Shown piece after piece: positions 263-23,968 of a stretch of 24,242 nucleotides of DNA. The notes under the pieces are model-generated. The model searched no databases. It was given only the letters and a program-made list of their open reading frames with translations, and had not been told where the DNA came from. The stretch spans positions 1-24,242 of the IMG/VR virus record IMGVR_UViG_3300037182_000015; one strand, given 5' to 3'. The position numbers and the translations under genes are program-made. The DNA comes from a virus. Taxonomy: Duplodnaviria; Caudoviricetes. Positions within the stretch are counted from its first letter, which is position 1, and each line of letters begins with the position of its first letter.

Positions 263-502
263 ATGTATAAAACTGCCGCGTCAGGTCATAATTTGTATCA
301 AATGGTGCTTAATCCGAACGGAGATTATGTCAACAACTCAACCGGAGTACGGTATCAAGTAAACATCATTAACTGGGTAGACACTCCGGTAGGGCCGAAC
401 GCGATAACAATTCTAGGTGGGTACATCGACTTCGCTACGATTGATGCCGCGATGGCGCATTACAATTTGACTTATTTACCGTTGGTGCCAGTATCCCCAT
501 GA
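263..502 (+). CDS. hypothetical protein, 79 aa
   Basis: AGGTGT RBS upstream of the ATG. Tightly packed between neighbours, with an ATGA overlap with the next gene. Confidence 0.75.
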   Translation: MYKTAASGHNLYQMVLNPNGDYVNNSTGVRYQVNIINWVDTPVGPNAITILGGYIDFATIDAAMAHYNLTYLPLVPVSP

Positions 503-4798: not shown

Positions 4799-5221
4799 AT
4801 GACTAGCTGCTATCCGCCATCTTTTGAGAACGGTATGCTCACTCGTGTGTATATCGCGGCGAATCTTACCGGCGATCCCGGATGGGTTCAACTTGGTGGC
4901 GAAACTACATCGAAATTTAGTGTGAAACCTGTAACCGCAGATGCTACGAACAAAGATTCGCCTGCGGGATTGGCTATCGCAGTGGGCTATGATTGGTCAC
5001 TTACTTCGGATCAGGAATGGAACCTCACCGACGCAGGCCAAATGCTTGTACGGAATATGCCACTGGCGCTTGAGATGCGAAGAGTCGCATGGAAGCCTAA
5101 TGGTTCAAGCATTGGTTACTATGGCTATGCAACCTGTGGATGGGATACCGATGCAACCAACCGAGCAGTTACCAAGATGAGTCTAACCATAACTGGCTGC
5201 GGACCACTGTCTTACTCGTAG
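4799..5221 (+). CDS. major tail tube protein (TP901-1-like family)
   Basis: Pattern 'LGGETTSKFSVKPVTADATNKDS...WSLTSD...YYGYA...MSLTITGCGPL'. AGGAGG RBS and expected position. Confidence 0.82.
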   Translation: MTSCYPPSFENGMLTRVYIAANLTGDPGWVQLGGETTSKFSVKPVTADATNKDSPAGLAIAVGYDWSLTSDQEWNLTDAGQMLVRNMPLALEMRRVAWKPNGSSIGYYGYATCGWDTDATNRAVTKMSLTITGCGPLSYS

Positions 5222-5232
5222 GAGAGTTAAAC

Positions 5233-5595
5233 ATGGCAGCGACAGTTTATACGCCGGTTGTCATGGGGCGCGATACGCCTCTTAACCTGACGACTGCGCT
5301 TGCAGGTGCAGTTACGCCAGGTGGACTAACCGGGGACTCATTTGTTAATACAGGACATGAACTATTTTACCACATCAACTCAGATGGCGCGAATGCAAAG
5401 ACGGTAGTGTTCTCAGCAGGGCAGTGTTCGTATGGAGTTGAGCACGACCTGACAGAAACAACGCCAGCATCAACGACTAAGGAATACGGGCCGTTCAGTG
5501 TAGAAGAGTTTGGAAGTTCGATTCCTGTTACATTCAGCGGCACAGGCGGCGTAACCAACGTCAAGGTTCTAATCGTACAGCATCCGTACGTGTAA
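5233..5595 (+). CDS. small beta-rich virion protein (paralog 1)
   Basis: ATG at 5233 follows a GGAG RBS; the track start at 5140 is unlikely. Motif 'GDSFVNTGHE...GPF'. Confidence 0.75.
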   Translation: MAATVYTPVVMGRDTPLNLTTALAGAVTPGGLTGDSFVNTGHELFYHINSDGANAKTVVFSAGQCSYGVEHDLTETTPASTTKEYGPFSVEEFGSSIPVTFSGTGGVTNVKVLIVQHPYV

Positions 5596-5608
5596 GGAGT
5601 GAACAAAA

Positions 5609-6055
5609 ATGGTTGATCCAATAGACATTACGCCACAAGCATCTACAATCCACGATACTAATGCATTAGACGCAACGCCTTTAGCTCCAACGACAGGGCT
5701 GAACATGACGTTCTACACGCTACAAGCAGCGGATTGGACGAATGGTATCACGTTCCTTAACACGGGACATGAAGTGGTCGTTGTGATGAGCAAATCCGCA
5801 AACGTTGTCACGACGACCGCTCAGTGTGCAGTTGCATGCGACCAGGGATTTAAGAGTCCCCAACACGATGTTATCGCAAGTCAGACCGCAGGAAGCGTGA
5901 CACCAACGTTTAAGGTTATCGGTCAGTTCCAAACGTCCCGATACAACCAGACAATAGGTGCAGCGCAGTTGCCTAACCGGGTTCTTGTTACGTTTGCCGG
6001 TGACACTGGAAACGTCAGCATAGCAGTACTGCAAACCCCGACTGTAGGACAATAA
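5609..6055 (+). CDS. small beta-rich virion protein (paralog 2)
   Basis: AGGAGTGA RBS. Shares 'FxNTGHE', 'C..G...HD', 'G.F' and 'VTF.G..G' with the preceding gene. Confidence 0.75.
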   Translation: MVDPIDITPQASTIHDTNALDATPLAPTTGLNMTFYTLQAADWTNGITFLNTGHEVVVVMSKSANVVTTTAQCAVACDQGFKSPQHDVIASQTAGSVTPTFKVIGQFQTSRYNQTIGAAQLPNRVLVTFAGDTGNVSIAVLQTPTVGQ

Positions 6056-6548: not shown

Positions 6549-7055
6549 ATGTCCGCGATAATGGAAGCGGCGTTCGGGGTGCTACACCTTACACACGATG
6601 AACTGTTTGCCTTAACGCCGTTTCAGTTCACACAACTCTATCGCGGGTGGGAAGAACGTGAGAAACTAGAGCAAATCAGAAACGCTCAACTCATGGTTAC
6701 AATCGCCAACTCAAACCGATGGGACGAGAAACAACCAGTCGTAACGATTCAGGATATTCTGCCGTGGTATGAAGAGTATGTACCTGATGAAGTAATTGAA
6801 AAGATAGATATACCAATGCGTCCGGCAATCCCACGCGATGAACTGCTTTTAATGACGACGCACCAGATCCTTGAACAGCGCGGGCTCGATCCTGAGACAG
6901 TTAAGAAGGATTCAGAAGAATGGACAGAAGCAGAGAACATAGCGATCATCTGTTGCGGACCGGAAGCCGCGGAAGATTCTATCGTATTAGAGGGCGGGAT
7001 CGAGATTAAGAAAGTTGATCCGAAGGTCTTTGGAAAAGCACCGTGGGGTGAATAG
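6549..7055 (+). CDS. tail assembly chaperone, gpT-like C-terminal part (probably made as a G-T fusion, 6085-7055)
   Basis: 'AFGVLHLTHDELFALTPFQF' is typical of gpT-like segments. It is in the -1 frame relative to gpG and has no clear RBS of its own. Confidence 0.8.
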   Translation: MSAIMEAAFGVLHLTHDELFALTPFQFTQLYRGWEEREKLEQIRNAQLMVTIANSNRWDEKQPVVTIQDILPWYEEYVPDEVIEKIDIPMRPAIPRDELLLMTTHQILEQRGLDPETVKKDSEEWTEAENIAIICCGPEAAEDSIVLEGGIEIKKVDPKVFGKAPWGE

Positions 7056-10000
7056 TGGTAGGCACTGGATCTGACATCGTTGTTAAGTTCGGGGCAGACC
7101 TTACCCAACTTAAAGCGGGGATGGCTGAGGCGAAAGGTGAAGGCGAGGACTTAGGTAGCAGCTTAGGTAGTAAGTTAGGCAGCATCGGCACGATGGCTGC
7201 GGCAGGTGTCGGTGTTGCAGGTGTAGCAATTGCCGCATTCGCCGTAAAGTCTGCTGAGGATGTTGACGGCGCCTATAAATCTATAGAGAAACAAACCGGC
7301 GCAACTGGCACGGCACTTAATGGCTTAAAGGGATCGTTCAACACTGTTTTTGGTAACTTCCCTATAAGTTCTGCTGACGCCGCCACTGCGGTCTCTACGG
7401 TCTATGACCGACTTAAAGATATGCAGGGCGGCGTACCGCCAACGCAAGCAGCGGTCACATCACTTACGTCTGCTTTTGAAGAGTTCGCCACGGTAACAGG
7501 CACAAGCGTGGCGACAGATACCGACCAGTTAATGAAGACCTTTGCACAGTTTCATGAACCAGCGTCCAGTATGGCGGCGTCACTTAACGACATTACCCAA
7601 GCTTCGCAGTACGCTCACATCCCAGTCTCTCAGCTACAAAGTGATATGATAAAGGCCGGGCCGACATATGCGGCAGCCGGTGTTAGCGTCGATGATATGA
7701 CCGCATCGATTGCTCAGATGGACAGCTCAGGGGTTAAATCAAGAACCGCTATAAGTGGCCTAAACACGGGGATGGCGGCGCTTGAAAAGAGCGGCGATAC
7801 ATCAAAGCAGGCGTTCTCTACACTCACTCAAGAGCTAGACAAATATGCTACAACGGGGGTAAAGACTGGTGAGGTGTCGAAACTTAGTGGAACCGCTCTA
7901 GTACAGCTAACTGCCGCAGCAAAATCCGGGGCGTTTGACTTTGATACCCTGACGGGTAAGATGTACACGAATTCCGGTGCTATGGAGAAATCGTATGAAG
8001 ATACGCGAACTTTTTCACAACGACTAGACATATTCAAAAACAAACTCGAACTAGCATTTGCCCCGTTAGGTGAGTCTATAATTGGTTTACTAGAAAGCTT
8101 CCTTGCTGCTATTACGCCGCTTCTACCTATTATCACTTCTTTAGTAACTGTATTTACTAGTTTACCGATGCCTATACAGATGATCGGTATGGCCTTCATA
8201 GGACTAGTCGGCGGTGTCGGCGCGTTACAGATGGTGCTCAAACTGTTTGATATGAGTATCACGAAACTACCTGCGGATATCGCAAAGGTTACTTCTGCGC
8301 TGAAGGATATGAACCTACAGAGTAAAGTGACTAACCTAGTCGCGCCAAAAGTTGGCGGGGGGGGCGCAGCGGGTGAAGCAGCTGAAGGCGCAGAAGTGGC
8401 AGAAGGCGGCGGCGCGGCGGGTGAAGCGGAAGGCGTCGCAACAGGGCTCGGTGCTGCTGCGGGTGAAGGTGGCATACTTGCAGGCGTTCTCGCACCGATA
8501 ACAGCTCTTCTCGGTGGCATGCTGGCACCTATAATGGGCACAGTTACTGGTATTGCCGGCGCAGTAACAAGTGGTGGAAGCTTCCTTGAAATTATTGGAA
8601 GTATCGCAATGGCATTTAACCCCATAACTATAGCTATCGCGGCGATAGGTGCGGGGTTCATGTTGTTGTATGCGACATCAAATACTTTTAGAACCTCAAT
8701 CGGCGCTCTTGTGAGTCAATTCATGTCTCTTCTCGGATGGGTCAAGGAACTCGTCGGAGACCTAACAAGCCTTAACTTCTCCAAGTTCTCGACTGATTTG
8801 GTCAGTGGGATCAAGGGCGGCCTTGATACTGTAAAGAACGATATAATGGGCCTCCCAGGAATGTTAGTCACAGCTATCGGGGAATCCGTCACGACGATAG
8901 GCGGCATCTTTGATAAGATCGGCGGCATGCTGATGGGTGCGTTCAACTCAGTTAAAAATATAGATTGGGGCGGTATGGTGAACGGACTGCTCACGGCGAT
9001 TGACAATGTCCTGACTGGCTTGCTTAACTTCGATCCGACCTCTATGATTAACAATATTATCAATGCGATAGGCGCAGCGTTTGACAGTCTCTTTGGTGGT
9101 GGTGGAGGTTCTTCAACAAGTCCGACGGGAACCAAAGTATCAGGCGGGATGAGCAAAGGACTAAGCGATGGCGTGAGCAAAGCAGGTCCAGACATACTCG
9201 GCAAACTCGGTGACGTCTTTGTAAAATTAATGGAATTGTTACCTACGATATTCATTAAAGTGGCTACCGCGCTAGGAGAAGCATTAGCAAAGGTTGATTT
9301 GGGACAAATAGGCGGTAAAATATTAACTGCCATGGAGACTGCATTTGTCACATTCTGGAGCACTGTCGGGGCGATTGTTCCTAAGATAGGCGGCTGGATG
9401 CTCAGCGCGTTCGTTACATTTTGGTCAGCGGTACCCGGATACCTCTCACAGATAGGCGGCTGGATGCTTAATGCATTTAAAACAGTCTGGGGGCCGGTTG
9501 GAAACGACCTAAAGAATGCCCTTATGGGTGCATTAGGTGGTATTGGCGCAGCGTTGGGGGGGGCCTTTGACTCCCTAAAAAAGATAGACTGGGGCGGCGC
9601 TATTTTAAATCTCTTTAAACTGCTTGGGTCTATGGGCGTCGCATTAGGGACAGCCCTCTTAAATGCTTTTAAAATGGTTAATTGGTTACAGATATTCACT
9701 CTTATCTTCGTTACATTAGTATATTTTGGACAGGCAATTCTCAAGGCACTTACAGGGATTGATTGGGGAGGCGCGTTGCTTAAACTGTGGACCGCGCTTA
9801 GCACGGGGTTCGACAAGGTTCTCAACATACTCGAAACGAGGGACTGGGGTGGAATGGCTTTGGCTATATGGAACGCACTCATTGCCAAACTAACGGGTAT
9901 AGTCAACTGGTTTAAAGGTCTAGATTGGGGTGGTTATGCGACTACAGTTTGGAACGCCCTTACTGGCGCGATAGGTGGTATGGTAACGTGGTTACAAGGG

Positions 10001-10753
10001 TTGCCATGGGCAACATGGGCGACAGACCTATGGAACGCCCTTACTGGCGCGATAGGTGGTATGGTAACGTGGCTCAAAGGGTTGCCGTGGGCTGATTGGG
10101 CGACAGGCCTTTGGAACGATATCGTATCTGCACTCGGTGGATTCGGTACGTGGTTACTCACTGCGGCGGAAGGCTTTTTCACTGGATTGCCTGGTAAGAT
10201 CACAAGCGCCGTATCAGGATTTGGTGATTGGTTACTCACTGGCGCCGCCGGATTCTTCACCGGGCTTCCCGGAGGGATTAAGGGACAGATAGGCGGACTT
10301 GGTGACTGGTTAACGACGGCGGCGGCGGGATTCTTCACCGGGATTCCCGGAGCATTTCAAAGTGCCTTAGGGCAGGTTCATGTTACGCTTGATACCACCC
10401 CCCCGTTCTTACACATATCATTAGGCGCTGAGGGTGCTTTAGTACCTGCTAAGCCGGGCGGGTCACTATACCTCCTGGGTGAAGCGAACGAAGAAGAACT
10501 CGTAGTACCCCGCAGGCGATGGGGTGAAGATTGGAGTTCGCTTGTCGCATCATATGGTGGGTCGTTCGCGTCTGGGGGCATCGTAGGCAGTACCAACACA
10601 CCTAGCGGAACGGTTCGAACATCTCAGACCTCATCATCCTCACAAACTATCAATTATAATACATACGTCAGTGTGGACTCAGAAAACGTAACAAGAAAGG
10701 TGCTTATGTCAAATCTTGAACTGGAGAGATACCACCATATGAACGGGTTTTAA
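7055..10753 (+). CDS. tail tape measure protein, 1232 aa
   Basis: GTG start after GGGGTGA. Ala/Gly-rich helical protein with N-terminal 'IVVKFGAD', hydrophobic segments, Trp/Phe-spaced repeats and a C-terminal 'GE...E.VVP / FASGGIV' motif. Confidence 0.95.
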   Translation: MVGTGSDIVVKFGADLTQLKAGMAEAKGEGEDLGSSLGSKLGSIGTMAAAGVGVAGVAIAAFAVKSAEDVDGAYKSIEKQTGATGTALNGLKGSFNTVFGNFPISSADAATAVSTVYDRLKDMQGGVPPTQAAVTSLTSAFEEFATVTGTSVATDTDQLMKTFAQFHEPASSMAASLNDITQASQYAHIPVSQLQSDMIKAGPTYAAAGVSVDDMTASIAQMDSSGVKSRTAISGLNTGMAALEKSGDTSKQAFSTLTQELDKYATTGVKTGEVSKLSGTALVQLTAAAKSGAFDFDTLTGKMYTNSGAMEKSYEDTRTFSQRLDIFKNKLELAFAPLGESIIGLLESFLAAITPLLPIITSLVTVFTSLPMPIQMIGMAFIGLVGGVGALQMVLKLFDMSITKLPADIAKVTSALKDMNLQSKVTNLVAPKVGGGGAAGEAAEGAEVAEGGGAAGEAEGVATGLGAAAGEGGILAGVLAPITALLGGMLAPIMGTVTGIAGAVTSGGSFLEIIGSIAMAFNPITIAIAAIGAGFMLLYATSNTFRTSIGALVSQFMSLLGWVKELVGDLTSLNFSKFSTDLVSGIKGGLDTVKNDIMGLPGMLVTAIGESVTTIGGIFDKIGGMLMGAFNSVKNIDWGGMVNGLLTAIDNVLTGLLNFDPTSMINNIINAIGAAFDSLFGGGGGSSTSPTGTKVSGGMSKGLSDGVSKAGPDILGKLGDVFVKLMELLPTIFIKVATALGEALAKVDLGQIGGKILTAMETAFVTFWSTVGAIVPKIGGWMLSAFVTFWSAVPGYLSQIGGWMLNAFKTVWGPVGNDLKNALMGALGGIGAALGGAFDSLKKIDWGGAILNLFKLLGSMGVALGTALLNAFKMVNWLQIFTLIFVTLVYFGQAILKALTGIDWGGALLKLWTALSTGFDKVLNILETRDWGGMALAIWNALIAKLTGIVNWFKGLDWGGYATTVWNALTGAIGGMVTWLQGLPWATWATDLWNALTGAIGGMVTWLKGLPWADWATGLWNDIVSALGGFGTWLLTAAEGFFTGLPGKITSAVSGFGDWLLTGAAGFFTGLPGGIKGQIGGLGDWLTTAAAGFFTGIPGAFQSALGQVHVTLDTTPPFLHISLGAEGALVPAKPGGSLYLLGEANEEELVVPRRRWGEDWSSLVASYGGSFASGGIVGSTNTPSGTVRTSQTSSSSQTINYNTYVSVDSENVTRKVLMSNLELERYHHMNGF
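9950..10072 (+). repeat. exact 42-bp direct repeat within the tape measure gene (81-bp period)
   Basis: TGGAACGCCCTTACTGGCGCGATAGGTGGTATGGTAACGTGG occurs at 9950-9991 and 10031-10072. Confidence 0.95.
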
Positions 10754-10755
10754 TC

Positions 10756-13700
10756 ATGGCAGAAGTATGGAAGTTATACACGGCAGATGGTCAAGTCTAC
10801 AACTTCAATGTTCAAGGCAACGACCCGAATGCTATACTTTATGATGACGTTTACAACTTACTAATCGGAACTACCGGACACCACGGCCTCCCTTATACAA
10901 TACTATCTGATCCTGTTCCAAACATCGCAGGAGCGGAGTTCCGTCAGAGGGTTGGCGCTGTTCGTCCCGTTTATTTGCCACTTAGGATCACGGGTCAAAA
11001 TCCCGCGGACTTCCATCGAAACTTTGAGAGGATTAGAAATTCTATAACACAAGTTGACGAACACCAGCTTTGGGTCACTAACGAAGAGGGTGAAACCAGG
11101 GTATTGTATTGCAGGTACCTAAAGGGGTTCGAGACAACCGTTGATGATGATAAACGAAGCCGCTTAACGGTTAATGTTCCACTCTATGTTGAAGCAGACG
11201 ATCCATACTGGTATGCTCCTCCAGGTGCTGAAATATCGCAGTCATTTTCGAGCGAACCCTGGAACTCTGACTTCCTTACATTCACAGAAGAGATTGCACT
11301 CTCTGCTGACGCGGCAACCGGCGATACGCGGCTCACGGTTACTAATACGGAGAACTGCGAAGCGGGGTTCCCGATCGAGATTCAAGGAAGTAAGGCGGTG
11401 TTGGGCCTCCTCCAAGCGGAACTATTGGCAGATAAAGAAAAAGAAACCGAAGATGAATTATCATTAAGCGTCCAGTCGTCAACAAATATCACCGTTTCAA
11501 CAGAGCAATCAAACGTTCAACTCAACCAGACGTTCCATGTATCAGGAACGCTTACCTCGCAGAGCCAAAACGTTTCGAATACAATGGTGTCAATCCAAGA
11601 GACTGATCCCAATGGTGTAACGACGAGTAGTATCTCTTTTACTAGTGGGACGGGCACCTATTATGTGACTAAGAATCTCAATATAAACGGGATATATACC
11701 TATGTAGCGTCATTCCTCGGCAGCGGAAGTCTTGCTCCATCTACTGCGTCAACGTCAATCACTGTCGGTACTGTCGCTGCGACAACGCTAACATTAACAG
11801 TCTCTCCAGGTAACCCGGCAGTTAGTACTAACTTCACATTATCCGGCACGCTTAAAGCGGGAGGCGTAGGAGTCTTAGGGCAAACAGTCACGATTTATAA
11901 GAACTCTCCGCGAGGCAAGACTAAGATAGCATCTGCCACTACAGATAAGAACGGTGCATACTCATTTACCCGTAAAGAAACTACCGCAGGGTGGGTCTCG
12001 TATCTTGCTAGTTATGCCGGAGATACGGTTACTACTATAGCAAAACAAGACCCGTCACTATCAACGTGGCTTACGTGGCTGTTTCAAAAGATATTCGGTG
12101 AGCTCGAAGGACAGGTCACGTATGGTTCATTTGCGGCTTCCAGTGCCTCGCTTATCGTGGCGATTGGAACATTCACGTATCATATCAATTATATGGCGGG
12201 CTTGCCGCCGAGTATGATAAACGACGGAGAAATACAATACTTTGGTTACAACGGCTTTATGGGTATTATCTGCATTGCCGAGGCTGGTTCTGATAATTAC
12301 TCTACAGAACTCGGCGTGATAACCGGACAAGGATTATGGCCTGCGATTGATATCTCAGTCGTTACAAATAATGATACGGCGCTTTCTGTCCATCATACGT
12401 GGCTTGCGTCACTCTACGCTGCAGGATGGCGCTACTTTATGGGTGGCAACTCTCACGGCAGAACTGGCGACCCCGCATATATAGCATCATTAGGGGCCGG
12501 AGCTGTGTATATCAATGACAACTCGTCTCCTCGAGGTACGGGCACGACACAACCTGACATCTCAGGAACAGGCGTGTATCATAATAGTTTCGATTGCTAC
12601 AACTCAAAGTCAATTCCTTACATCGAAACCTATACGACCTCTGCCTATTTGGCATCACCTAGCGTAAAAAGCGGACTAACTGCATACGTTCGACCTGACG
12701 ATTCAAGCGGCATTAACGGGATGCTTACTAACTCCGTTGCGGGAACCGCGCCGACGTACCGAGACATCTTTGATTGGAGTTATGTTAACCAGACTGGGAT
12801 GACTAACTTTGTCGTGTGGTTCGGGCCGAAATATAATGCGATAACTGCACGGGATAGTGAACCCGAACAACTTAGTCTTTATAAATCACTTCAATTCGAT
12901 CTCATCATTTCGGAACTTGCAAGTACCTATTACCCTGGAAGCAATCAGTTGGATATGGCCGGGACGCATTACGTGTGGACGCAACCGACACACAAAGCGG
13001 TTAGTCTTACAATGAACTACACTACGAGTCCCGCAGGGACGTGTGAGTTTACAGGCACATTAACGGAACTGAACACCGGCATAGCCGTCGCATCTGCAAC
13101 CGTCACTCTGTGGGAAGATGTAACAGGAACTTGGACACAACGGGCTACAACTACTACTGACAGCGCAGGGAACTATGATATTCCGTTTACAAGTACTGTA
13201 GGCATTCACACATTCAGGATTATGTACGCTGGAGATGCCACTCATATGGCATTCACGGCACCCTCAGCATTCGGTATTACCATGAACCTTTGCGTCGTTG
13301 ATCTCCTATCAGTTAAAGAGATGAATGAGATTTATTCCATTGATAGCCCAACCGTTCTAACATTGGTTAACCCACTTGCTAATAACTACACGGTTGCGAG
13401 TGAGGCGTACCTAGTCGAAGTCGATACTGAGGATTGTTTCCTCACTCCTGATCCCTCAACGACCCGCACCGTGAATCCGAACTGCACACTACTACAGATG
13501 TGGATACCTGGTTGCCCTCCTTGTTATAATGCAATGGCACAGCTAAACGCGCTAGTTGCAGATTACCCAAGCGTGACATATCTGCATGCCAATATCACAG
13601 AACAGTTACCCTACGGTCCAAGTAACAATTTTTACCCTTATAACGAACCCGGAGATATTGGCATGAACGCAGTTGCGATCCAGTATCCTTCAGCACTTCA

Positions 13701-14466
13701 ATTCGCACGCCCTAAGTCCGAAGGTGGTCAGTGTGGCCCTGCTCTTCCAGCATGGGGGCCGATGACCGTTATTGATGATATCATGCCTACGGTTATTGCA
13801 CTATATCGAAATGGGTTGTTTATCACGGCATGGTGCGGTGTGCATACAACAGGCGTAGACCCTGTCTCAACTGATACGATCCTGGACGCGTGCGGTCCGA
13901 TGCTTACCTGGCGACTTGGACAGAGCTACATCGGAAGTCAAGTCATCGTTAATAATAACGGTGATGTGATTGCATATCCTATCTGGACATTCACCGGCCC
14001 GGGAAGATCACCAACGCTTACTAACGTTACCACGGGCGACGTATTCCAACTGAACCACGACTTAGTAGCAGGCGAAGCTGTTGTCATAGATGCAACAGAA
14101 AACGCACACACGGTCGCGAGCACAAACTCCGCAACCTTTACTGGCGCAGGATATATGAAGAGTGAGACGTGTCCGACCTGTCACGGCACAGGCGTTATCC
14201 CGTCAGGATGCGCAACGTGCGGAGGGTGGGAGATATGTCCGACGTGCCACGGCTCGGGTGTAATCAGCGTGTGGGTTCCGGCATCTACTGGTAGTACTAC
14301 CGACATTGGGGGGATGAACAACCTTAGATTCGAGATGGACCCGAACGGCAATACGTTCTGGGGATTCCAACCCGGGGCGAACGTTATCACTGTTGAGATG
14401 GGCGTAGCCACGTATAACAAGAGCATAGCTAACCTAAGTTTAGTGCCGCGATATGAGGGTATCTAA
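10756..14466 (+). CDS. distal tail (Dit) protein with multiple inserted domains (three Ig-like, TIM-barrel-like, thioredoxin, DnaJ-type Zn finger)
   Basis: Directly follows the tape measure gene. Dit N-part: 'GAEFRQ...RPVYLPLRI...ETRVLYCRYLKG...EADDPYWY'. Dit C-part: 'VNNNGDVIAYPIWTFTGPG..PTLTN.TTG...L..GE.VVIDAT...FWGFQPGANVITV'. Confidence 0.85.
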   Translation: MAEVWKLYTADGQVYNFNVQGNDPNAILYDDVYNLLIGTTGHHGLPYTILSDPVPNIAGAEFRQRVGAVRPVYLPLRITGQNPADFHRNFERIRNSITQVDEHQLWVTNEEGETRVLYCRYLKGFETTVDDDKRSRLTVNVPLYVEADDPYWYAPPGAEISQSFSSEPWNSDFLTFTEEIALSADAATGDTRLTVTNTENCEAGFPIEIQGSKAVLGLLQAELLADKEKETEDELSLSVQSSTNITVSTEQSNVQLNQTFHVSGTLTSQSQNVSNTMVSIQETDPNGVTTSSISFTSGTGTYYVTKNLNINGIYTYVASFLGSGSLAPSTASTSITVGTVAATTLTLTVSPGNPAVSTNFTLSGTLKAGGVGVLGQTVTIYKNSPRGKTKIASATTDKNGAYSFTRKETTAGWVSYLASYAGDTVTTIAKQDPSLSTWLTWLFQKIFGELEGQVTYGSFAASSASLIVAIGTFTYHINYMAGLPPSMINDGEIQYFGYNGFMGIICIAEAGSDNYSTELGVITGQGLWPAIDISVVTNNDTALSVHHTWLASLYAAGWRYFMGGNSHGRTGDPAYIASLGAGAVYINDNSSPRGTGTTQPDISGTGVYHNSFDCYNSKSIPYIETYTTSAYLASPSVKSGLTAYVRPDDSSGINGMLTNSVAGTAPTYRDIFDWSYVNQTGMTNFVVWFGPKYNAITARDSEPEQLSLYKSLQFDLIISELASTYYPGSNQLDMAGTHYVWTQPTHKAVSLTMNYTTSPAGTCEFTGTLTELNTGIAVASATVTLWEDVTGTWTQRATTTTDSAGNYDIPFTSTVGIHTFRIMYAGDATHMAFTAPSAFGITMNLCVVDLLSVKEMNEIYSIDSPTVLTLVNPLANNYTVASEAYLVEVDTEDCFLTPDPSTTRTVNPNCTLLQMWIPGCPPCYNAMAQLNALVADYPSVTYLHANITEQLPYGPSNNFYPYNEPGDIGMNAVAIQYPSALQFARPKSEGGQCGPALPAWGPMTVIDDIMPTVIALYRNGLFITAWCGVHTTGVDPVSTDTILDACGPMLTWRLGQSYIGSQVIVNNNGDVIAYPIWTFTGPGRSPTLTNVTTGDVFQLNHDLVAGEAVVIDATENAHTVASTNSATFTGAGYMKSETCPTCHGTGVIPSGCATCGGWEICPTCHGSGVISVWVPASTGSTTDIGGMNNLRFEMDPNGNTFWGFQPGANVITVEMGVATYNKSIANLSLVPRYEGI

Positions 14467-16040
14467 TGCCCGGAAGTCCTTTAATAGAATCTGACTGTCA
14501 GATCATAATGCGTGATTCTAACCTGGAAGACATAGGCGAGATCACGCGATATACCCAATGGCAACATACGTTAAAACTGAATGAAGTCTCAAGCTGGGAA
14601 CTTGATATGCTCACCAGGGACTTCGAGAGCTACGACATTGACGTAAATACTGGCATACTATTCTACCGTGATGGAGAACTACTGATTGACGGGCCAATTA
14701 TGTCTAACGGGATTAAACACACGCTCCAGGCGGGCGTAGAAACAACGTCGATAATAGGCGGTTGTGATAATGCGTATCTAATGTCCCGTATCTGTTACCC
14801 CGTAGTCACCGGGCCGCTCTTTGATGCAGTAGCGGGAACCTGGAAGTTTGATGTTCAGCGTTCAGCGGTTGGTATATCAACGACCATTACAACCGGCTCA
14901 ACGGCAGGAGAAGAGTACGACGTACCTCTGGTAGTTGCTGATGCTGAGGGGTTCCTTGATGGTTCAACGGTTACATGGCTTGATCCTACTGGGGTCGCTC
15001 ATAGTAATTGGGATACGATCGAAGGCGGCTATGACGGCAACATGAGCGACCTGCGGTATTATAACAGTGCGGCTATGACTATGTCGGGCGTTGATTTTAG
15101 CACTAACACTATCACAATCGCGGTGCCACAACAATACCCTGCAATGCTCGCCCCGGCGTTTACTGGCGGTGCGTTATACCAAACATCCGGTGGAACCGTT
15201 GATGATCCGTTATACTTGGGATATGATACGCGAAGTGGCCCAGCAGATAATGTTGCGAAAGAGCTCGTTTATTTCAATGCTGGTCTTGGGGCGTGTTCGG
15301 ATCACTTCAGTACTCGGGCGATCCCATTTCTGAATACAGGGATGCCAACCGCACAGGGATTAACCGTGACTGCAAACTCGCGAGGCGAGAACCTACTTAC
15401 ACAGGTTCAAAACGTATGCCTTAGTGGTGGGGTAAACTTCAAAACCACGCAGATTAACGGAGAGTTAGTATTTGATACGTTTATGGGCAATGACTTAACA
15501 CAAGACGGCAACCTTATATTTAGCGTTGAGAGTGGCAACCTAAAAGAATACGTATACACATATGGGCCACCGACGGCTAATATGATATGGGGTTGTGGTC
15601 CTCAAACAGGCCCAGATAAACAAATGCTCCCTAGTGGAGATATTAATTCAATTCAACAGTACGGACGGTGGGAATCGTGGATCAGTGCAGCGACGGCGGT
15701 TGCGGGTGACACGCCTGCACAGATTGCCGCTAACATGGTTCAAACAAACAACCTCGCGCTTTCTCAGTCGGTTATCAATGGGCAACTTACGCTTACTATT
15801 CAAGAGACGGACCAGGTCAGGTATCCCAGAGACTTCGGACTTGGGGATAAAGTGCGTGTTATGGTCGGAACGATGCCTGTAGATGAAATTATTACAACTA
15901 TTATGTACTCACTCCCTTCAGGGACAAGTAGCGCGGCGCAGGGGTCGGCATTGATGGTTGCACTCACTAAACAAGAGACACGCGCGATGCAGGCTCAAAA
16001 AGCGACCTCGAAGTTGTTGCAGCAAATGCAGATGACTTAA
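14466..16040 (+). CDS. tail hub/tip protein, siphovirus ReqiPepy6 gp37-like
   Basis: Motifs 'LKLNEVSSWELD', 'GILFYRDGELLIDGPI', 'LIFSVESGNL', 'YGRWESW' and 'YPRDFGLGDKVRV'. Follows Dit. Confidence 0.85.
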   Translation: MPGSPLIESDCQIIMRDSNLEDIGEITRYTQWQHTLKLNEVSSWELDMLTRDFESYDIDVNTGILFYRDGELLIDGPIMSNGIKHTLQAGVETTSIIGGCDNAYLMSRICYPVVTGPLFDAVAGTWKFDVQRSAVGISTTITTGSTAGEEYDVPLVVADAEGFLDGSTVTWLDPTGVAHSNWDTIEGGYDGNMSDLRYYNSAAMTMSGVDFSTNTITIAVPQQYPAMLAPAFTGGALYQTSGGTVDDPLYLGYDTRSGPADNVAKELVYFNAGLGACSDHFSTRAIPFLNTGMPTAQGLTVTANSRGENLLTQVQNVCLSGGVNFKTTQINGELVFDTFMGNDLTQDGNLIFSVESGNLKEYVYTYGPPTANMIWGCGPQTGPDKQMLPSGDINSIQQYGRWESWISAATAVAGDTPAQIAANMVQTNNLALSQSVINGQLTLTIQETDQVRYPRDFGLGDKVRVMVGTMPVDEIITTIMYSLPSGTSSAAQGSALMVALTKQETRAMQAQKATSKLLQQMQMT

Positions 16041-16053
16041 GGATCTAAATAAA

Positions 16054-16500
16054 ATGCAATCAGCAAAAGAACCGGATTATAGAACTGCGGTCGCACAGTC
16101 AATTCTAAACGCTCGGAGCGACATCGGCGATGCACAGGAAGCGATTGGCGATAACACGGACGCTATTAACATGATCTGGACGTGGACGGAGAATATGAAT
16201 TTTAACCTCGGTGCGTGTTACGATTCAGACAAGGGCGACCATTATGTCTTTTCGGTTGGGCCTGATAGATTCTTATACCGGAATGTCTACTCAAATGCGC
16301 AGAACAAGTGGATCGGATGGGCGCAGATTTCAGATACAGGAGATTGGACTTCCGGTCCAACTGCGTATTATCAAAGCTCAGAGATCCACGTCTATATCGC
16401 TTCCGCTGCGAACTCGATAAAATACGGAGTACTCAGCACAGCAAGCTACTCTACCACGATACCGAGTTGGACAAGCTTAGGCGGAACGGACGGTCCGTGA
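16054..16500 (+). CDS. putative tail-tip protein with an N-terminal helix and two lectin-like beta-propeller blades
   Basis: 'HYVFSVGPDRFLY...WIGWAQI...WTSGPTA...IHVYI...WTSLGG' resembles fucose-lectin/PLL-type blade repeats. Confidence 0.6.
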   Translation: MQSAKEPDYRTAVAQSILNARSDIGDAQEAIGDNTDAINMIWTWTENMNFNLGACYDSDKGDHYVFSVGPDRFLYRNVYSNAQNKWIGWAQISDTGDWTSGPTAYYQSSEIHVYIASAANSIKYGVLSTASYSTTIPSWTSLGGTDGP

Positions 16501-16520
16501 GGTAACCCGTGAGGTAAAAA

Positions 16521-17567
16521 ATGACGGCAAAACGATTCTGCGCTCACTTCGGCAATTTGGACAATCTTAGTTGGTTAGCATCATCGGGATTTGCTGAAGC
16601 TGGTCTTGTATGGCAGTGGGATGGTAGTACTACCGCTGCAGGAACCGCGAGTTCAATACACAACGCGGGGATTCCTACGGCCACATTCAATGCGTTCAAT
16701 GACGGCAGCGCAGCGGTGTGTCAACCAGGCGCTGCCGGTGGTCCGTATGCAGGATACTTCCAAGCTCTTGCGAGCGCCGGTTGGAACTGTATCGCAGGTG
16801 AGGGCTGCGGCGGCTCTGTAGTTTCCACCGTTCAGAACTATTGCACGTATGTTAATTACGGCGGCATTGTTGGAGATAGTCAAGGAGATATGTACGCCGA
16901 CCCGTGGGATCACCCGACGGGCGGTGGAAAAGGGCATTGGGATTATATTGAAACGTATAATAACAGCAACGAATATCGTGACCCAAGCCAATCAATCGGA
17001 TGGTCGAAAGCTGCTGGTGCCGGACACCTCGGCATCTTAATAATGTATGGGCCAAGTCCAGCGGCAGACGTAAACACCTACATAAACGTCATTGACCAAA
17101 ACGGCTGTGACTCAGTACTATTTTGGAGCGGATACGGTAGCAGTTCGTCCGTCTGCGAAGGGCTGGCGGGGCAATTAATCAGTCATTACGGAGCAACAAA
17201 AACCGGAGCAACCGGCGGCACTGGTGGGGCTACAGCAACAGTGGCGGCAGGCAAAACAACAGTCATACCTGCGATTCAATGCCCATGCAAACACATCGTC
17301 CTCGGGTTCAAAGGTGGGACAAGTGCAAAGACATCTTCCAAGCTTGAGTTTGAGGTGCAAATCGTCGGTCAGGCAGGATGGGTGGATAATAACGAGAAGT
17401 GGATTCACGGCAGACCATACACGGGACAGCTAGAGATTTGGTGCAGGGATTCAAAAGGCAAGAGTTGGGCACTAGGTAAGATATGGCCCGCTAAAGACGG
17501 GACTTTCTCGTTTATGGTAGGAAGTGACACCGCTGAGACACGATACTATAATGTTCGTTTCTTGTGA
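16521..17567 (+). CDS. putative glycoside-hydrolase-like TIM-barrel protein with a G/T/A linker and a C-terminal beta domain
   Basis: Alternating beta/alpha pattern over ~225 aa, then linker 'GATKTGATGGTGGATAT' and a beta-rich C-terminal domain. GAGGT RBS. The ORF is clear; the function is inferred. Confidence 0.55.
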   Translation: MTAKRFCAHFGNLDNLSWLASSGFAEAGLVWQWDGSTTAAGTASSIHNAGIPTATFNAFNDGSAAVCQPGAAGGPYAGYFQALASAGWNCIAGEGCGGSVVSTVQNYCTYVNYGGIVGDSQGDMYADPWDHPTGGGKGHWDYIETYNNSNEYRDPSQSIGWSKAAGAGHLGILIMYGPSPAADVNTYINVIDQNGCDSVLFWSGYGSSSSVCEGLAGQLISHYGATKTGATGGTGGATATVAAGKTTVIPAIQCPCKHIVLGFKGGTSAKTSSKLEFEVQIVGQAGWVDNNEKWIHGRPYTGQLEIWCRDSKGKSWALGKIWPAKDGTFSFMVGSDTAETRYYNVRFL

Positions 17568-17577
17568 GGTATTTTAA

Positions 17578-18099
17578 ATGGCTATTGCAACGATTTATAC
17601 AATGACTGGCTGCGAACACTGCGCCACACTTGAAGGACTTATCTCAAGTGCCGGCCTCACTAGTCAAGTCACTGTTGTGGTTGACCAGGGGGTTAAATGT
17701 GGTTCAGGGACACCCTGCACAGTAATCACCGCAACCGGCACATGCTACGGATTCCCGAGCTGTGATGAGACATGTCAAATGGCAGCGATTCAAGCGGCGG
17801 CGTCCCCGACTGCAACTAAAACCTCAACGACAACCCCCGCAGCTACGCCAAAAGCAGCGGGGACAACAACGGTCGTAACGCCGACCCCTGCATGGAGAAC
17901 GAGTAACTGGGGCAATGAACTCTCAATAGACTGGGGCGCGAAGAATCCAAAACCTACAATCGCGCAAACACCCGCAGGATATGAACCACCAGATGTATCG
18001 TTAACGCCTGTCCTGCCGTTGCCACCTGTTATGTCGGATGGAATCACAGTCTCTTTGAGAGATCATAAGCGCTTACCCATCGGTCGAAAGGTAGCATAA
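17578..18099 (+). CDS. glutaredoxin/thioredoxin-fold protein (CEHC) with a Thr/Pro-rich tail
   Basis: 'TIYTMTGCEHCATLEGLI' matches the glutaredoxin/NrdH N-terminal pattern and 'GTPCTVI' matches the cis-Pro loop. GAGGT RBS. Confidence 0.7.
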   Translation: MAIATIYTMTGCEHCATLEGLISSAGLTSQVTVVVDQGVKCGSGTPCTVITATGTCYGFPSCDETCQMAAIQAAASPTATKTSTTTPAATPKAAGTTTVVTPTPAWRTSNWGNELSIDWGAKNPKPTIAQTPAGYEPPDVSLTPVLPLPPVMSDGITVSLRDHKRLPIGRKVA

Positions 18100-18131
18100 T
18101 TTAGAATTTATAAAAAAGGAGTTAAAAACAA

Positions 18132-19679
18132 ATGGTAGAAGTCTCGTACCCTTTCAAAGCACCAGCAAGTACCAATCCGAGTGGAAACACGATGAGTGAA
18201 AACCAGTGGGCGGCCATGATGCGCTACGTTCTTGGAAGCGGCGTAATGGCCGCTACGTTTAATGATAATCTTAACGAACTAGAGGTAACACCCGGGGCAA
18301 CACCGCTGACTGTTGACATCGATACAGGCGCAGCATGGATTCAAGGGCATTACTATCAAAGTGATGCTGTAAACACATTAACAATTCCACAAAACACTAA
18401 TGCAGGAACACGCGCAGACCTGATCGTTCTTGAGTGTAAGTGGGGGCTTAATGCGGGAATTACCGCAACGGTTGTAACAGGAACCGCAGGGGCTACGTGG
18501 CCTACAGGTTCTGCGTTCAGCGGCCCGATGCCTGCGCCGCTGACTCAAACCTATGGTGTAAAGTGGCAGATAGCCCTCGCGCAGGTGTACACATTACAGA
18601 ACCAGGCAGTAGTATATCCTACTTCACAAATGCTCGACCAGCGGAACTTCGTCGGTTCTGGGGCAGCGCAGAGCAATGCAATTACGGTAGCGATGCCCAA
18701 TGCAAGTGACAAGATGCGACAAAACGCAGACTTCCAGATACCTGATGTAGAATCATACGTTTACGCCGATGAAATCATAAACGAAGCATTTGCAGCACTA
18801 CCAGCGTGCGGCGGAACAGTCATGCTCAGCGAGGGTGATTGTATCATATCGGATACAATAACTCCAGTAAACGGAGGCACGCTTGCAGGATGCGGAGCGC
18901 AAACAACGATCACACTATATGGTGGCGCACCCGCAGGCACGCCTATGATCTCAATGAATTATGCTACCGGTAGTGTGCATAATCTATTACTAAACGGCGC
19001 GGGGACTACATCAAACGTCTACACAACGACACCCGTCGCTGGTAATAATGGAATTAATGTCGTGAGTGCGGCGGGCGCGAGCATACACGACGTGAGTATA
19101 CAGAATATGCAAAATGCCGGAATAGTAGTCACAGGCGGCCCTGCAAACGTGGTTATTAACAACTGCTCTATCACTGCATGCTTCGGTGACGGCATAGACT
19201 TCGCAGGTGAGTATAGTGATATATCAGATAACTTCATCGGGAACTGCGGAGACGTCGGGATTCACATCAACCCTACAACAAACGTTGCGAGCTGTAACAG
19301 AATCGCCAGTAATTTAATCACAGGATGTGGGATGAACGGGGTTTATATGGACGGCACAGCGGGCAGTGGCTTATTTAACATGATTGGCAACAACGAAGTG
19401 GGTCAATGTGGACAAGCAGCGACAACTACGCATGCTGGTATCCTCATTTCTGGTTCAGGTGCAAACCACACCTCCGTAGTCAGTAACTACGTGTGGTCTG
19501 CTGGTGCTCCAGTACTCAAATACGGACTCGCTGTTCAGAACGGTGCGGTTGATACCCGGGCAATCGCCAATGACCTGTATGACGCCGCCTCCGGGACCGG
19601 GAGTTATGATATCTTTGCTGCATCTGGTTTAACGCTGAGTGGACTGACGTTTAACCTGTACGCAACACACAGTCCTTAG
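18132..19679 (+). CDS. tail spike/fibre: baseplate-anchoring N-domain plus right-handed beta-helix (pectate-lyase-like) domain
   Basis: N-domain 'SYPF...VDIDTGAAWIQGHYY...RADLIVL...WQIALAQV...DQRNF'. 'INEAFAALPACGGTVMLSEG' caps the beta-helix, followed by repeated 'N.I..CG..GI' rungs. AAGGAG RBS. Confidence 0.85.
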   Translation: MVEVSYPFKAPASTNPSGNTMSENQWAAMMRYVLGSGVMAATFNDNLNELEVTPGATPLTVDIDTGAAWIQGHYYQSDAVNTLTIPQNTNAGTRADLIVLECKWGLNAGITATVVTGTAGATWPTGSAFSGPMPAPLTQTYGVKWQIALAQVYTLQNQAVVYPTSQMLDQRNFVGSGAAQSNAITVAMPNASDKMRQNADFQIPDVESYVYADEIINEAFAALPACGGTVMLSEGDCIISDTITPVNGGTLAGCGAQTTITLYGGAPAGTPMISMNYATGSVHNLLLNGAGTTSNVYTTTPVAGNNGINVVSAAGASIHDVSIQNMQNAGIVVTGGPANVVINNCSITACFGDGIDFAGEYSDISDNFIGNCGDVGIHINPTTNVASCNRIASNLITGCGMNGVYMDGTAGSGLFNMIGNNEVGQCGQAATTTHAGILISGSGANHTSVVSNYVWSAGAPVLKYGLAVQNGAVDTRAIANDLYDAASGTGSYDIFAASGLTLSGLTFNLYATHSP

Positions 19680-21960: not shown

Positions 21961-22130
21961 CGCCAAACTTCGTGACTACTCTGCTAGCTCACGCAAGCAG
22001 CTTCTATCGCCGTTTGCTGGCGAAAACACGATAGCCCTCGTGTCAGGATATTCTTAGCTGCGTTCTCATCCCTGTCTAAGACAAGTCCGCAGTCACACGA
22101 ATGTGTGCGGTCTTTCAGTTCTTTTTTGAC
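21952..22130 (-). ncRNA. predicted TnpB omegaRNA (reRNA) scaffold plus guide
   Basis: In established TnpB biology the RNA overlaps the tnpB 3' end and right end, and the guide is the flank after TCAC, here GAAGTTTGGCGTTGACAAAG. The 5' limit is a guess. Confidence 0.6.
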
Positions 22131-23093
22131 TATCGCACCACATCGTGAACATTCTTGAGTTGTATTCTTTGGGTCGACCATCACCACAACCGAACCAGCG
22201 TTCTCAGCTTTGTTCTGTGTGAATGCGATGAATTGACTCCACGCCACATCGCCTATTGACTTTGCTAGGTAGCGGTTTTGCATCATCCCTTTTATGTTCA
22301 AGTCCTCAAAGGCGATGACGCCGTATGTGTTGACAAGTTTCCTACTCAACTGGTGAGCGAAGTTACTCCGTTTGTTTGCTATCCGTTCGTGAACCTTAGC
22401 GACAACTTTCTTTGACTTCTTTCGTTGCGCTTTTGCTAACTGCTTTTCTTCGGCTCTAAAGAAACGTGGGTTGTTTATATGCTCACCATTCGAGAGCGTA
22501 GCAAACGAAGTCAAGCCAACGTCTATACCTACCGCAGCGTCGTTGGTGTGTTCTAGTATGTTTGGTTCACACTCAACAGTGAAACACGCAAACCACTTCC
22601 CTGTTGAACTGCGCTTTATGTTGAGTCGTTTTATCTCGCCTGCTATCGGTCTGTGTAGTTTTATCTTGACGCTGCCTATCTTTGACAGTTGCAGCGTCGA
22701 ACCATCAAGAGCAAAACCTGACTGTGGATAAGTAAAAGAGTCATACCAACCTTTGCCTTTGAAGCGTGGATAGCCAGCTTTCTCTCCGGCTTTCACACGT
22801 CTAAAGAACGCTTTGAACGCTAGGTCTACTCTGTATTGTATTTCTTGGAGTACCTGTGAATAAACACTCGTTAGCGTTGGTTGTTGCTCTTTCCATAGCA
22901 GCAAGAGCCTTTGAGTGTCATATCGAGAGTATAAAGTATGTTTTGAATAAGGAAATATTTTGGTCGCTTCATATGCGTTACGCCGTGTTGCTAGTGTTTC
23001 ATTATAGACCCATCGACACAGGTCGAGGGTGTGATTGAGCGCCGTTTCTTGTGCGCGTGTCGGATAGAGCCGATAGCGGAATACTTTATTCAT
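21984..23093 (-). CDS. tnpB: RNA-guided endonuclease TnpB, 369 aa
   Basis: N-terminal 'FRYRLYPT..Q', 'GYPRFK', RuvC-I GIDVG, RuvC-II FEDL, Zn finger CSRC/CDC and RuvC-III DRDENAAKNI are all present. Confidence 0.97.
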   Translation of the reverse strand: MNKVFRYRLYPTRAQETALNHTLDLCRWVYNETLATRRNAYEATKIFPYSKHTLYSRYDTQRLLLLWKEQQPTLTSVYSQVLQEIQYRVDLAFKAFFRRVKAGEKAGYPRFKGKGWYDSFTYPQSGFALDGSTLQLSKIGSVKIKLHRPIAGEIKRLNIKRSSTGKWFACFTVECEPNILEHTNDAAVGIDVGLTSFATLSNGEHINNPRFFRAEEKQLAKAQRKKSKKVVAKVHERIANKRSNFAHQLSRKLVNTYGVIAFEDLNIKGMMQNRYLAKSIGDVAWSQFIAFTQNKAENAGSVVVMVDPKNTTQECSRCGAIVKKELKDRTHSCDCGLVLDRDENAAKNILTRGLSCFRQQTAIEAACVS

Positions 23094-23365: not shown

Positions 23366-23968
23366 TCACTGGATTAATAGCTCCCCTATCCATTCAGTAT
23401 AAGTTGGCGGTATCGCCTGGGTTAGTTCGTATTTAGTCATCCAATCAATACACATAGCTTCACACCAGTCTTTATATTTAAACGTCTTACTGTTACCACC
23501 ATGACCTGCTACGGTAATATAATCCCCCCTGCCGACCGTTCCGTTATGGTTGCACGGTCCTGGGGGATATATCCATATATTCGATTCAAACAACCGATGT
23601 CGAATTACTTTTAAATTAAACATTGTACCGCATAGTTTCATCGGTTTTATTAATGGTGCGCCTTGTACATTCTCGATAATATAATCTTTGTTATCTACTA
23701 ATTCGCGCGTAGCGGATATTAAATCAGGAAACTTGTTTAACCTGCCTTGACGCGTACCCCACGTATATGCTTGGCACGGTGGTGAGGCGTGGATAATATC
23801 AAACTCATCGATAAACGATTCTTCTAATTTGAATACATCTGACTGTACAAACTCATAAGGATAATTCGGCTGCGGTTTTATATCGACACCCACCACGTCA
23901 AACCCTGCGCGATTGTAACCTACTGAGCAACCGCCTGCCCCGCAGTATAAATCTAAGAGTTTAGTCAT
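23366..23968 (-). CDS. C5 DNA cytosine methyltransferase (compact phage type)
   Basis: Motif I 'LDLYCGAGG', catalytic 'ASPPCQ' and motif VI 'IIENV'. AGGAGG RBS. Confidence 0.92.
   Translation of the reverse strand: MTKLLDLYCGAGGCSVGYNRAGFDVVGVDIKPQPNYPYEFVQSDVFKLEESFIDEFDIIHASPPCQAYTWGTRQGRLNKFPDLISATRELVDNKDYIIENVQGAPLIKPMKLCGTMFNLKVIRHRLFESNIWIYPPGPCNHNGTVGRGDYITVAGHGGNSKTFKYKDWCEAMCIDWMTKYELTQAIPPTYTEWIGELLIQ

What the first reader, a model, noticed from the sequence alone, without database searches (positions are those of the whole stretch)
13480..13893. Complete thioredoxin domain (CPPC) built into the distal tail protein
Seen: inside the Dit ORF the sequence reads LLQMWIPGCPPCYNAMAQLNALVADYPSVTYLHANI...IMPTVIALYRNGLFITAWCG. 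This gives the beta-CxxC-alpha-beta core and the cis-Pro 'xPT..l.+nG....G' end of the thioredoxin fold, with a ~55-aa insert between them. Established: insertions in 'evolved' Dit proteins are normally carbohydrate-binding modules. Inference: a hexameric Dit ring would display six thiol-disulfide oxidoreductase sites at the tail tip. These could reduce or isomerise host surface disulfides during entry, cross-link the virion, or act as a redox/oxygen trigger for DNA ejection. I do not know of a described precedent.
Basis: partly seen in the sequence, partly recalled or inferred. Interest (0 to 1): 0.85.

Follow-up and report, generated by a model that had tools for sequence, protein, structure and literature searches.

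The report
Thioredoxin built into virus tail tip
A family of tailed viruses that likely infect methane-making archaea carries a conserved domain, predicted to fold as a thioredoxin, inside the ring protein at the tail tip, where other phages put sugar-binding modules; it likely does thiol-disulfide chemistry on the virus particle itself, which our literature searches did not find described for tailed viruses.

Summary
Confirmed. ORF 10756-14466 (1236 aa) is a Dit, lying between the tape measure and a Tal-like gene. Residues 909-1047 model as a thioredoxin fold (pLDDT 82; every listed Foldseek PDB hit is thioredoxin-fold; VIA Z 9.1, rmsd 2.4). All 28 proteins hit by the module's profile are Dits or Dit fragments. 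CPPC, the cis-Pro-position MP, CGP and CGVHTT are invariant in 28 of 28. The module sits in the galectin-domain loop where evolved Dits carry carbohydrate modules. The same Dits all carry a DnaJ-type cysteine finger. A glutaredoxin-like domain is encoded three genes downstream in 8 of 8 loci long enough to show it. Sister viruses with plain Dits of about 310 aa lack all three, but that contrast is one evolutionary event. The host is likely an uncultured methanogen order. It has exported thioredoxin-CcdA-like proteins, and no DsbB or VKOR was found in 5 genomes. Best reading (0.35): a virion-borne reductase/isomerase that resets the tip's own cysteines. Activity, hexamer display and substrate are untested. 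Verdict: a new variant of evolved Dit, with no precedent found in our searches.

The parts
10756..14466 (+). Evolved distal tail protein (Dit), 1236 aa
   Evidence: phrog_106, phrog_33, phrog_5577, PF22768; TMP-Dit-Tal gene order
10756..11220 (+). Dit ring/belt domain (res 1-155)
   Evidence: phrog_106 at 5-158, E 1.6e-23; alignment A2
11230..11280 (+). First strand of the C-terminal (galectin-like) domain and the loop where the ~880-aa insertion begins (res ~159-175)
   Evidence: alignment with 7 plain Dits; site matches the p2 arm / CBM loop described in PMC7291167, by alignment only
11473..12045 (+). Ig-like modules (res ~240-430), variable, shared with proteins of the candidate host order
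   Evidence: PF16640; absent from the short homologues
12148..12960 (+). Unnamed ~270-aa module (res ~465-735), variable, homologous to signal-peptide-bearing proteins of the candidate host order
   Evidence: 19 of 19 sampled genomes of that order vs 0 of 132 other genomes of the phylum; 32% to L043 protein; no Atlas hit
13480..13896 (+). Thioredoxin-fold module (res 909-1047)
13513..13524 (+). CPPC dithiol (C920, C923) at the start of helix 1
   Evidence: invariant in 28 of 28; helix starts here in the model
13732..13740 (+). Invariant CGP (C993) in the helical insert
   Evidence: 28 of 28
13783..13788 (+). Invariant M1010-P1011 at the cis-proline position
   Evidence: 28 of 28; precedes strand E111-116 of the model; cis geometry not inspected
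13831..13851 (+). [WF]CGVHTT motif (C1027) at the end of the last strand
   Evidence: CGVHTT invariant in 28 of 28
13906..14463 (+). Rest of the Dit C-terminal (galectin-like) domain
   Evidence: PF22768 26.6 bits over cut-off 25; phrog_33
14170..14247 (+). DnaJ-type cysteine finger inserted in the C-terminal domain (CPTCHGTG ... CATC ... CPTCHGSG)
   Evidence: 28 of 28 thioredoxin-bearing Dits, 0 of 7 plain Dits; PF00684 below cut-off
7055..10753 (+). Tape measure protein
14466..16040 (+). Tal-like baseplate hub
   Evidence: PF14594 E 8e-21; Cys318 in 6 of 6 thioredoxin-Dit viruses and 0 of 3 plain-Dit viruses
16521..17567 (+). Cys-rich tail-module protein related to the host-order secreted module
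17578..18099 (+). Glutaredoxin-like CxxC domain (CEHC) on a C-terminal motif shared with large tail-module proteins of plain-Dit viruses
   Evidence: 8 of 8 long-enough thioredoxin-Dit loci; weak PF00462 in 4 of 8; PDB glutaredoxins E 0.06-0.6; only the C-terminal motif found in L096 and L098-101
18132..19679 (+). Beta-helix virion protein of the same tail-tip block

Best explanation
The segment is a conserved, predicted thioredoxin-fold domain inserted in the outer loop of the Dit, and it likely works as a virion-borne thiol-disulfide reductase/isomerase that resets the tail tip's own cysteines after the particle has left the cell. Shown: the fold model, the motifs, their conservation, the insertion site, and co-occurrence with the Dit cysteine finger and a glutaredoxin-like tail gene. 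Inferred: six flexibly tethered copies per tail. Oxygen exposure outside a strict anaerobe would oxidise the finger and the Cys-rich tip proteins. The CPPC site, with the glutaredoxin-like domain, would reduce or reshuffle those disulfides using electrons from ambient thiols or from the host's exported thioredoxin-CcdA-like proteins, so that the tip works at adsorption. C993/C1027 and C910/C1046 are likely structural pairs (not measured).
For: Both CxxC cysteines and the cis-Pro-position proline are invariant in 28 of 28. The module is as conserved as the Dit ring (17% invariant columns each vs 1% in the adjacent beta module) and under purifying selection (pN 0.11-0.35 vs pS 0.57-0.86 in 6 pairs). 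That proline is linked to substrate binding and to keeping metal off the CxxC (PMC2757866 passages). The module stays while Ig and host-derived modules come and go (507-1628 aa). It co-occurs with a three-dithiol finger (28 of 28 vs 0 of 7) and a glutaredoxin-like gene (8 of 8 vs 0 in L096 and L098-101). Extra CxxCxGxG pairs entered the thioredoxin insert at two positions in separate clades (5 of 31). A DnaJ-like finger protein (PSA2) has disulfide isomerase activity (PMC11449065 passage). Linkers are low-confidence and pTM is 0.31 in the 575-aa homologue model, which fits a tethered appendage. The candidate host is McrA-positive (5 of 5), encodes exported CPHC/CxxC thioredoxin-membrane fusions and a DsbD_TM protein, and showed no DsbB or VKOR (0 of 5 each, controls positive). 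A reductive direction therefore fits better than an oxidative one.
Against: No activity was measured and no substrate identified. Plain-Dit sister viruses also have Cys-rich tip proteins (13-15 Cys in the ~730-aa protein) and manage without any of the three redox modules. The plain Dits form one clade (100/99), so the co-occurrence is a single event of unknown direction. The proline does not always exclude a metal cluster (plant TRXo; PMC6210436 passage). Four invariant Cys plus an invariant His could be metal ligands. The position of E. coli Trx Asp26 (numbering recalled) is hydrophobic or Gln here. The host is inferred from shared genes; no provirus was found in 24 genomes and no CRISPR spacer test was run.
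Confidence: 0.35

Rival explanations
1. Non-catalytic use of the fold: a metal-binding or disulfide-stapled docking or adhesion module at the arm/hand site, binding a peripheral tail protein or a host surface protein through the cis-Pro groove.
For: The insertion site is the docking/adhesion loop of Dits (PMC7291167). Four invariant Cys plus His. Metal cofactors occur at siphovirus tips: lambda gpL holds an oxygen-sensitive [4Fe-4S] cluster on the outer surface (PMC10721106 passages). The tip block moves as a unit between different tube and capsid lineages, as host-range modules do.
Against: A purely structural role would not obviously need both CxxC cysteines, the proline and a second free glutaredoxin-like dithiol. 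The proline usually disfavours metal at the CxxC.
Confidence: 0.25
2. Entry enzyme acting on the host: it reduces or shuffles disulfides in the host envelope, or forms a mixed disulfide with a receptor.
For: Host-facing position next to host-derived surface modules. Host exported proteins carry conserved cysteines.
Against: No DsbB or VKOR in 5 of 5 candidate hosts (incomplete genomes), so envelope disulfides may be few. A virion has no electron supply of its own beyond a few dithiols.
Confidence: 0.2
3. Assembly-time foldase: it forms or corrects disulfides in Cys-rich tail proteins inside the host cell, like the poxvirus E10R-A2.5L-G4L pathway, and is merely carried along.
For: Poxvirus G4L glutaredoxin is packaged and needed for virion disulfides (PMC9282662 passages). 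Dit belongs to the tail initiator complex. The tip proteins derive from host exported proteins.
Against: No Erv-type oxidase was found in 5 virus records, 3 of them near-complete (inconclusive, the control rang nowhere). A methanogen cytoplasm is strongly reducing (general knowledge). A free enzyme would do, and plain-Dit sisters assemble similar tips without it.
Confidence: 0.15

Closest known systems
Evolved Dit proteins of lactococcal, streptococcal and Lactobacillus siphophages
   Same: TMP-Dit-Tal order, ring plus galectin-like domains, and modules inserted in a galectin loop (PMC7291167 and PMC6669499 passages)
   Different: The constant insert is a thioredoxin fold with a dithiol, not a carbohydrate-binding module. 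There is a second insert (cysteine finger), and the likely host is an archaeon.
Thioredoxin fold class (Trx, TlpA/CcmG, DsbF-like)
   Same: Four-stranded sheet, CxxC at helix 1, proline before strand 3, insertion between strand 2 and helix 2
   Different: Below Pfam cut-offs. It has a family-specific helical insert with CGP and the CGVHTT motif. No stand-alone member of this family was found among 14 phmmer hits or 28 profile hits (which searched only 325-2000 aa).
Poxvirus cytoplasmic disulfide pathway (E10R-A2.5L-G4L)
   Same: Virus-encoded, virion-associated thioredoxin-fold proteins
   Different: A eukaryotic virus with free enzymes and an Erv oxidase. Here the domain is fused into a structural ring protein and no oxidase was found (inconclusive).
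Lambda gpL tail-tip iron-sulfur domain
   Same: Conserved Cys-rich, potentially oxygen-sensitive domain on the outer tail tip, function open
   Different: Different protein (hub, not Dit) and a different fold.
DnaJ-like zinc-finger disulfide isomerases (PSA2) and zinc-finger thioredoxin 2
   Same: CxxCxGxG fingers associated with thiol chemistry; Trx2 structures 7d6l and 3p2a are among the fold hits
   Different: Cellular proteins. The finger here has three dithiols and lies in a neighbouring Dit domain or inside the thioredoxin insert.

Membership tests
Thioredoxin fold class | Four-stranded mixed sheet with three helices | tested here: met
   Model E8-14, H19-34, E38-44, E111-116, E119-124, H137-144; VIA Z 9.1, rmsd 2.4, 88 aligned; Foldseek prob 1.0. 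The model is a prediction.
Thioredoxin fold class | CxxC at the N-terminus of helix 1 | tested here: met
   CPPC, 28 of 28
Thioredoxin fold class | cis-proline at the start of strand 3 | tested here: inconclusive
   Proline invariant at that position; cis geometry could not be read from the model
Thioredoxin fold class | Thiol-disulfide exchange activity | not testable with these tools
   Needs a bench assay
Pfam Thioredoxin PF00085 / Glutaredoxin PF00462 | Score over the curated cut-off | tested here: not met
   Window segment: no family. 8 of 17 members hit PF00085 weakly, best E 6.5e-4; full-length scores shown were under the cut-offs.
Dit (SPP1 gp19.1-type) | Gene between TMP and Tal | tested here: met
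Dit (SPP1 gp19.1-type) | N-terminal ring domain and C-terminal galectin-like domain | tested here: met
   phrog_106, phrog_33, PF22768; plain sisters match phrog_33/106 end to end. The fold search of the full-length model did not run.
Dit (SPP1 gp19.1-type) | Hexameric ring in the virion | not tested
   Inferred from the family
Evolved Dit | Module inserted in a galectin-domain loop | tested here: met
   Alignment against 7 plain Dits
Evolved Dit | Inserted module is a carbohydrate-binding module | tested here: not met
   The constant module is thioredoxin-fold; the variable Ig and unnamed modules are unassigned
DnaJ central zinc finger (PF00684) | Four CxxCxGxG repeats, score over cut-off | tested here: not met
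   Two CxxCxGxG plus a central CxxC or CC; 17.7 bits vs cut-off 32.7
DnaJ central zinc finger (PF00684) | Zinc binding | not testable with these tools
   Needs metal analysis
Poxvirus-type viral disulfide pathway | Virus-encoded Erv/ALR oxidase | tested here: inconclusive
   0 of 5 records, but the control rang nowhere

The most novel reading that the evidence does not exclude
The tail tip is a redox-gated ejection device. The Dit finger and tip disulfides lock the tip when the virion is oxidised. The built-in thioredoxin and glutaredoxin-like domains take electrons from the methanogen's exported CcdA-thioredoxin system and unlock it, so DNA is released only into a live, reduced host.
Probability: 0.15. 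Interest if true: 0.92.

Novelty: new variant of a known kind. Interest (0 to 1): 0.75.

Why it matters
Known triggers and accessories at siphovirus tail tips are receptor binding, carbohydrate modules and metal sites of unclear role. A conserved thioredoxin-fold domain in the Dit ring, with a cysteine finger and a glutaredoxin-like partner gene, would add thiol redox chemistry to that list. It offers a testable way for viruses of strict anaerobes to cope with or sense oxygen. The plain-Dit sister viruses supply a natural control. The family also marks a group of viruses that likely infect an uncultured methanogen order; the Dit had no match beyond its C-terminal domain among 50,697 GenBank phage records.

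Tried and rejected
Chance motif or misassembly: rejected. The ORF is intact, identical in L001, and 28 homologues keep the module at a fixed 206-213 aa from the C terminus. Recent capture of a host thioredoxin: not supported. In 24 genomes of the candidate host order only the generic CxxC half matched (13 of 24 genomes, best E 1.8e-7). Stand-alone family members: none among 14 hits in the 1.84-billion set (two of the 14 were spurious, three were fragments); the profile was not searched at short lengths. Complex prediction of the 579-aa Dit (P0027) with its glutaredoxin-anchor partner: no answer, not used as evidence. Fold search of the full-length 575-aa model did not run, so Dit identity rests on profiles and gene order. 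Atlas search for the 465-735 module gave no usable hit. Provirus search in the host order: 0 of 24, uninformative. Cluster-member look-up could not be made, so source names are lacking. Covariation of C910/C1046: of 28, one protein lost both, three (one clade) replaced C910 by a nearby Cys, two lost only C1046; suggestive only. Earlier scan findings: none returned. Literature searches: distal tail protein + thioredoxin: 11 papers, none with the terms in title or abstract, listing only, not read; 20 of 34 listed; 7; 0; 6; one read, where thioredoxin is a free gene of HGTV-1; top 20 of 251 listed, all with 0 occurrences of 'thioredoxin-like domain'. Subscription papers are not covered.
Full report
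Observation. The window is the tail module of a tailed virus: neck and tube genes, TMP (7055-10753), a 1236-aa ORF (10756-14466), a Tal-like hub (14466-16040) and further tip genes. The long ORF has a Dit ring domain at 5-158 and the Dit C-terminal domain from 1050. Single-sequence Pfam and PHROG scans of the stretch find nothing. All ten listed Atlas neighbours are thioredoxin-type clusters, the top ones archaeal (a lead only). The family profile hits PDB thioredoxins. The AlphaFold2 model (pLDDT 82.3, pTM 0.81) matches thioredoxin-fold chains in Foldseek PDB, the viral library and an exhaustive VIA search (Z 9.1, rmsd 2.4, 88 aligned). The Z-scores are middling and tied, so they support the fold but not a subfamily.

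Family. A profile search of proteins of 325-2000 aa gave 28 hits, all at 144 bits or more (only the 8000 best-word candidates were scored). All 28 carry the module 206-213 residues from a Dit C terminus. CPPC, CGP, MP, YR and CGVHTT are invariant. An unrestricted single-sequence search of 1.84 billion representatives gave 14 hits: nine Dits or long Dit fragments, three short fragments and two spurious repeats. The proteins run from 507 to 1628 aa because Ig-like and host-derived modules come and go, while the thioredoxin module stays. Conservation equals that of the ring domain and substitutions are mostly silent.

Natural control. A ring-domain profile also found seven plain Dits of 304-319 aa, plus one more in L098-101. 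Alignment puts the insertion in the loop after the first strand of the C-terminal domain. PMC7291167 (passages) describes that loop as the p2 arm/hand and says evolved Dits carry CBMs in galectin loops. Plain Dits also lack the DnaJ-type cysteine finger that 28 of 28 thioredoxin Dits have. Their tail modules (L096, L098-101; L097 ends too early) lack the glutaredoxin-like CxxC domain found in 8 of 8 long-enough thioredoxin-Dit loci, though they keep its C-terminal motif. This contrast must not be over-read: the eight plain Dits form one clade (100/99) with an unresolved root, so it is a single gain or loss (the distant P0043 was kept in the tree as a long branch). More independent is that extra CxxCxGxG pairs entered the thioredoxin insert at two positions in separate clades (5 of 31 rows). 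The tip block is mosaic. The window's tube protein is 78% identical to that of a plain-Dit virus, while its Tal is 54-71% identical to thioredoxin-Dit viruses, several with no detectable tube match, and 39-43% to plain ones. Carriers also differ in capsid family.

Host. The genome scan returned a generic CPPC thioredoxin in a record titled Euryarchaeota archaeon (L007); a paper's supplement lists that record's phylum as Halobacteriota (PMC12313526, supplement search only; two files could not be read and finer taxonomy was not seen). The window's TnpB is 69% identical to one in that genome. The Dit's Ig and unnamed modules match 23 of 24 genomes of its order. The unnamed module matches 19 of 19 sampled genomes of the order and 0 of 132 others in the phylum sample. 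McrA is present in 5 of 5 tested. The host is therefore likely an uncultured methanogen order; from memory it could be Ca. Methanoflorens-like, which was not tested. No provirus was found. These genomes encode exported thioredoxin-membrane fusions and a DsbD_TM protein. DsbB and VKOR were not found in 5 genomes while controls were positive (completeness unknown). They hold no close relative of the Dit module.

Mechanism. Invariance of both cysteines and of the proline points to a working dithiol. PMC2757866 (passages) links that proline to substrate binding and metal exclusion; PMC6210436 (passages) shows exceptions. The model of a 575-aa homologue has confident separate domains joined by low-confidence linkers (pTM 0.31), which fits a tethered appendage; by Dit family knowledge there would be six per tail. 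With no oxidase found in virus (inconclusive) or host, oxidative assembly and attack on host disulfides both lack a clear basis. A reductive role fits better: oxygen would oxidise the finger and Cys-rich tip proteins outside an anaerobic host, and the module would reset them with electrons from ambient thiols or the host's exported thioredoxin system. I give this 0.35, a non-catalytic metal or docking role 0.25, attack on host disulfides 0.20 and an assembly foldase 0.15. Together the catalytic readings come to about 0.7. All steps beyond fold, conservation, position and co-occurrence are inferred.

Comparison with what is known. It is built like an evolved Dit but fails the feature that the insert is a carbohydrate module. 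It belongs to the thioredoxin fold class by model and motifs but scores below Pfam cut-offs. Functional analogues are poxvirus G4L (PMC9282662 passages), lambda gpL's oxygen-sensitive cluster (PMC10721106 passages) and PSA2 (PMC11449065 passages). Searches showed no Dit-thioredoxin fusion; these were listings of an open-access library, and only PMC8651126, PMC6669499 and PMC7291167 among them were read, as passages. Among 50,697 GenBank phage records only two matched, and only in the Dit C-terminal domain. Four database records already carry an automatic 'thiol-disulfide isomerase/thioredoxin' label, which hides their Dit identity.

Verdict. A real, conserved and apparently undescribed architecture: a new variant of evolved Dit carrying a predicted thioredoxin, with a cysteine finger and a glutaredoxin-like partner gene. 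Interest 0.75. The redox-gated ejection reading has probability about 0.15 and would be worth 0.92.

Noticed in passing
window 12148-12960; L042-L051; L029:6260-7375; L025:16081-17322: An unnamed ~270-aa module is an expanded family of signal-peptide-bearing proteins found only in the candidate host order within the phylum sample; in L043, L044 and L047 it lies next to an exosortase-like gene. The viruses carry it inside Dit and as separate genes (40-45% identical to the host protein).
   Followed up: partly
L002:18872-19330 (G002): A third thioredoxin, membrane-anchored with CDYC (PF00085 E 4e-7), lies after the tail module among small membrane genes of this 87-kb relative.
   Followed up: no
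window 4799-6055 vs 14466-19679: Mosaic tail: tube and neck genes are closest to plain-Dit viruses, the tip block is closest to thioredoxin-Dit viruses with other tubes and capsid families.
   Followed up: partly
window 21984-23093 (-): IS605-family TnpB, 69% identical to a copy in G006; the best single-gene host link.
   Followed up: yes
window 11281-11385 and 13309-13434: A small beta module (weak K1-lyase Rider hit in P0002) appears split by the Ig and host-derived modules, a nested insertion; it is contiguous in the 575-aa homologues.
   Followed up: partly
L054-L063: Conserved host gene: signal peptide, CPHC thioredoxin-like domain and a multi-pass membrane domain resembling CcdA; a candidate envelope electron source.
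   Followed up: partly
window 499-1287 and L027:3850-4635: A gene with an internal ~45-aa direct repeat is nearly identical at its start in G003, whose tail tube genes differ from the window's, suggesting recent exchange.
   Followed up: no
window 23366-23968 (-): Short C5 cytosine DNA methyltransferase.
   Followed up: no
L075, L076: Metagenome contigs where the module is broken into several short ORFs (frameshifts or assembly errors); left out of the counts.
   Followed up: no
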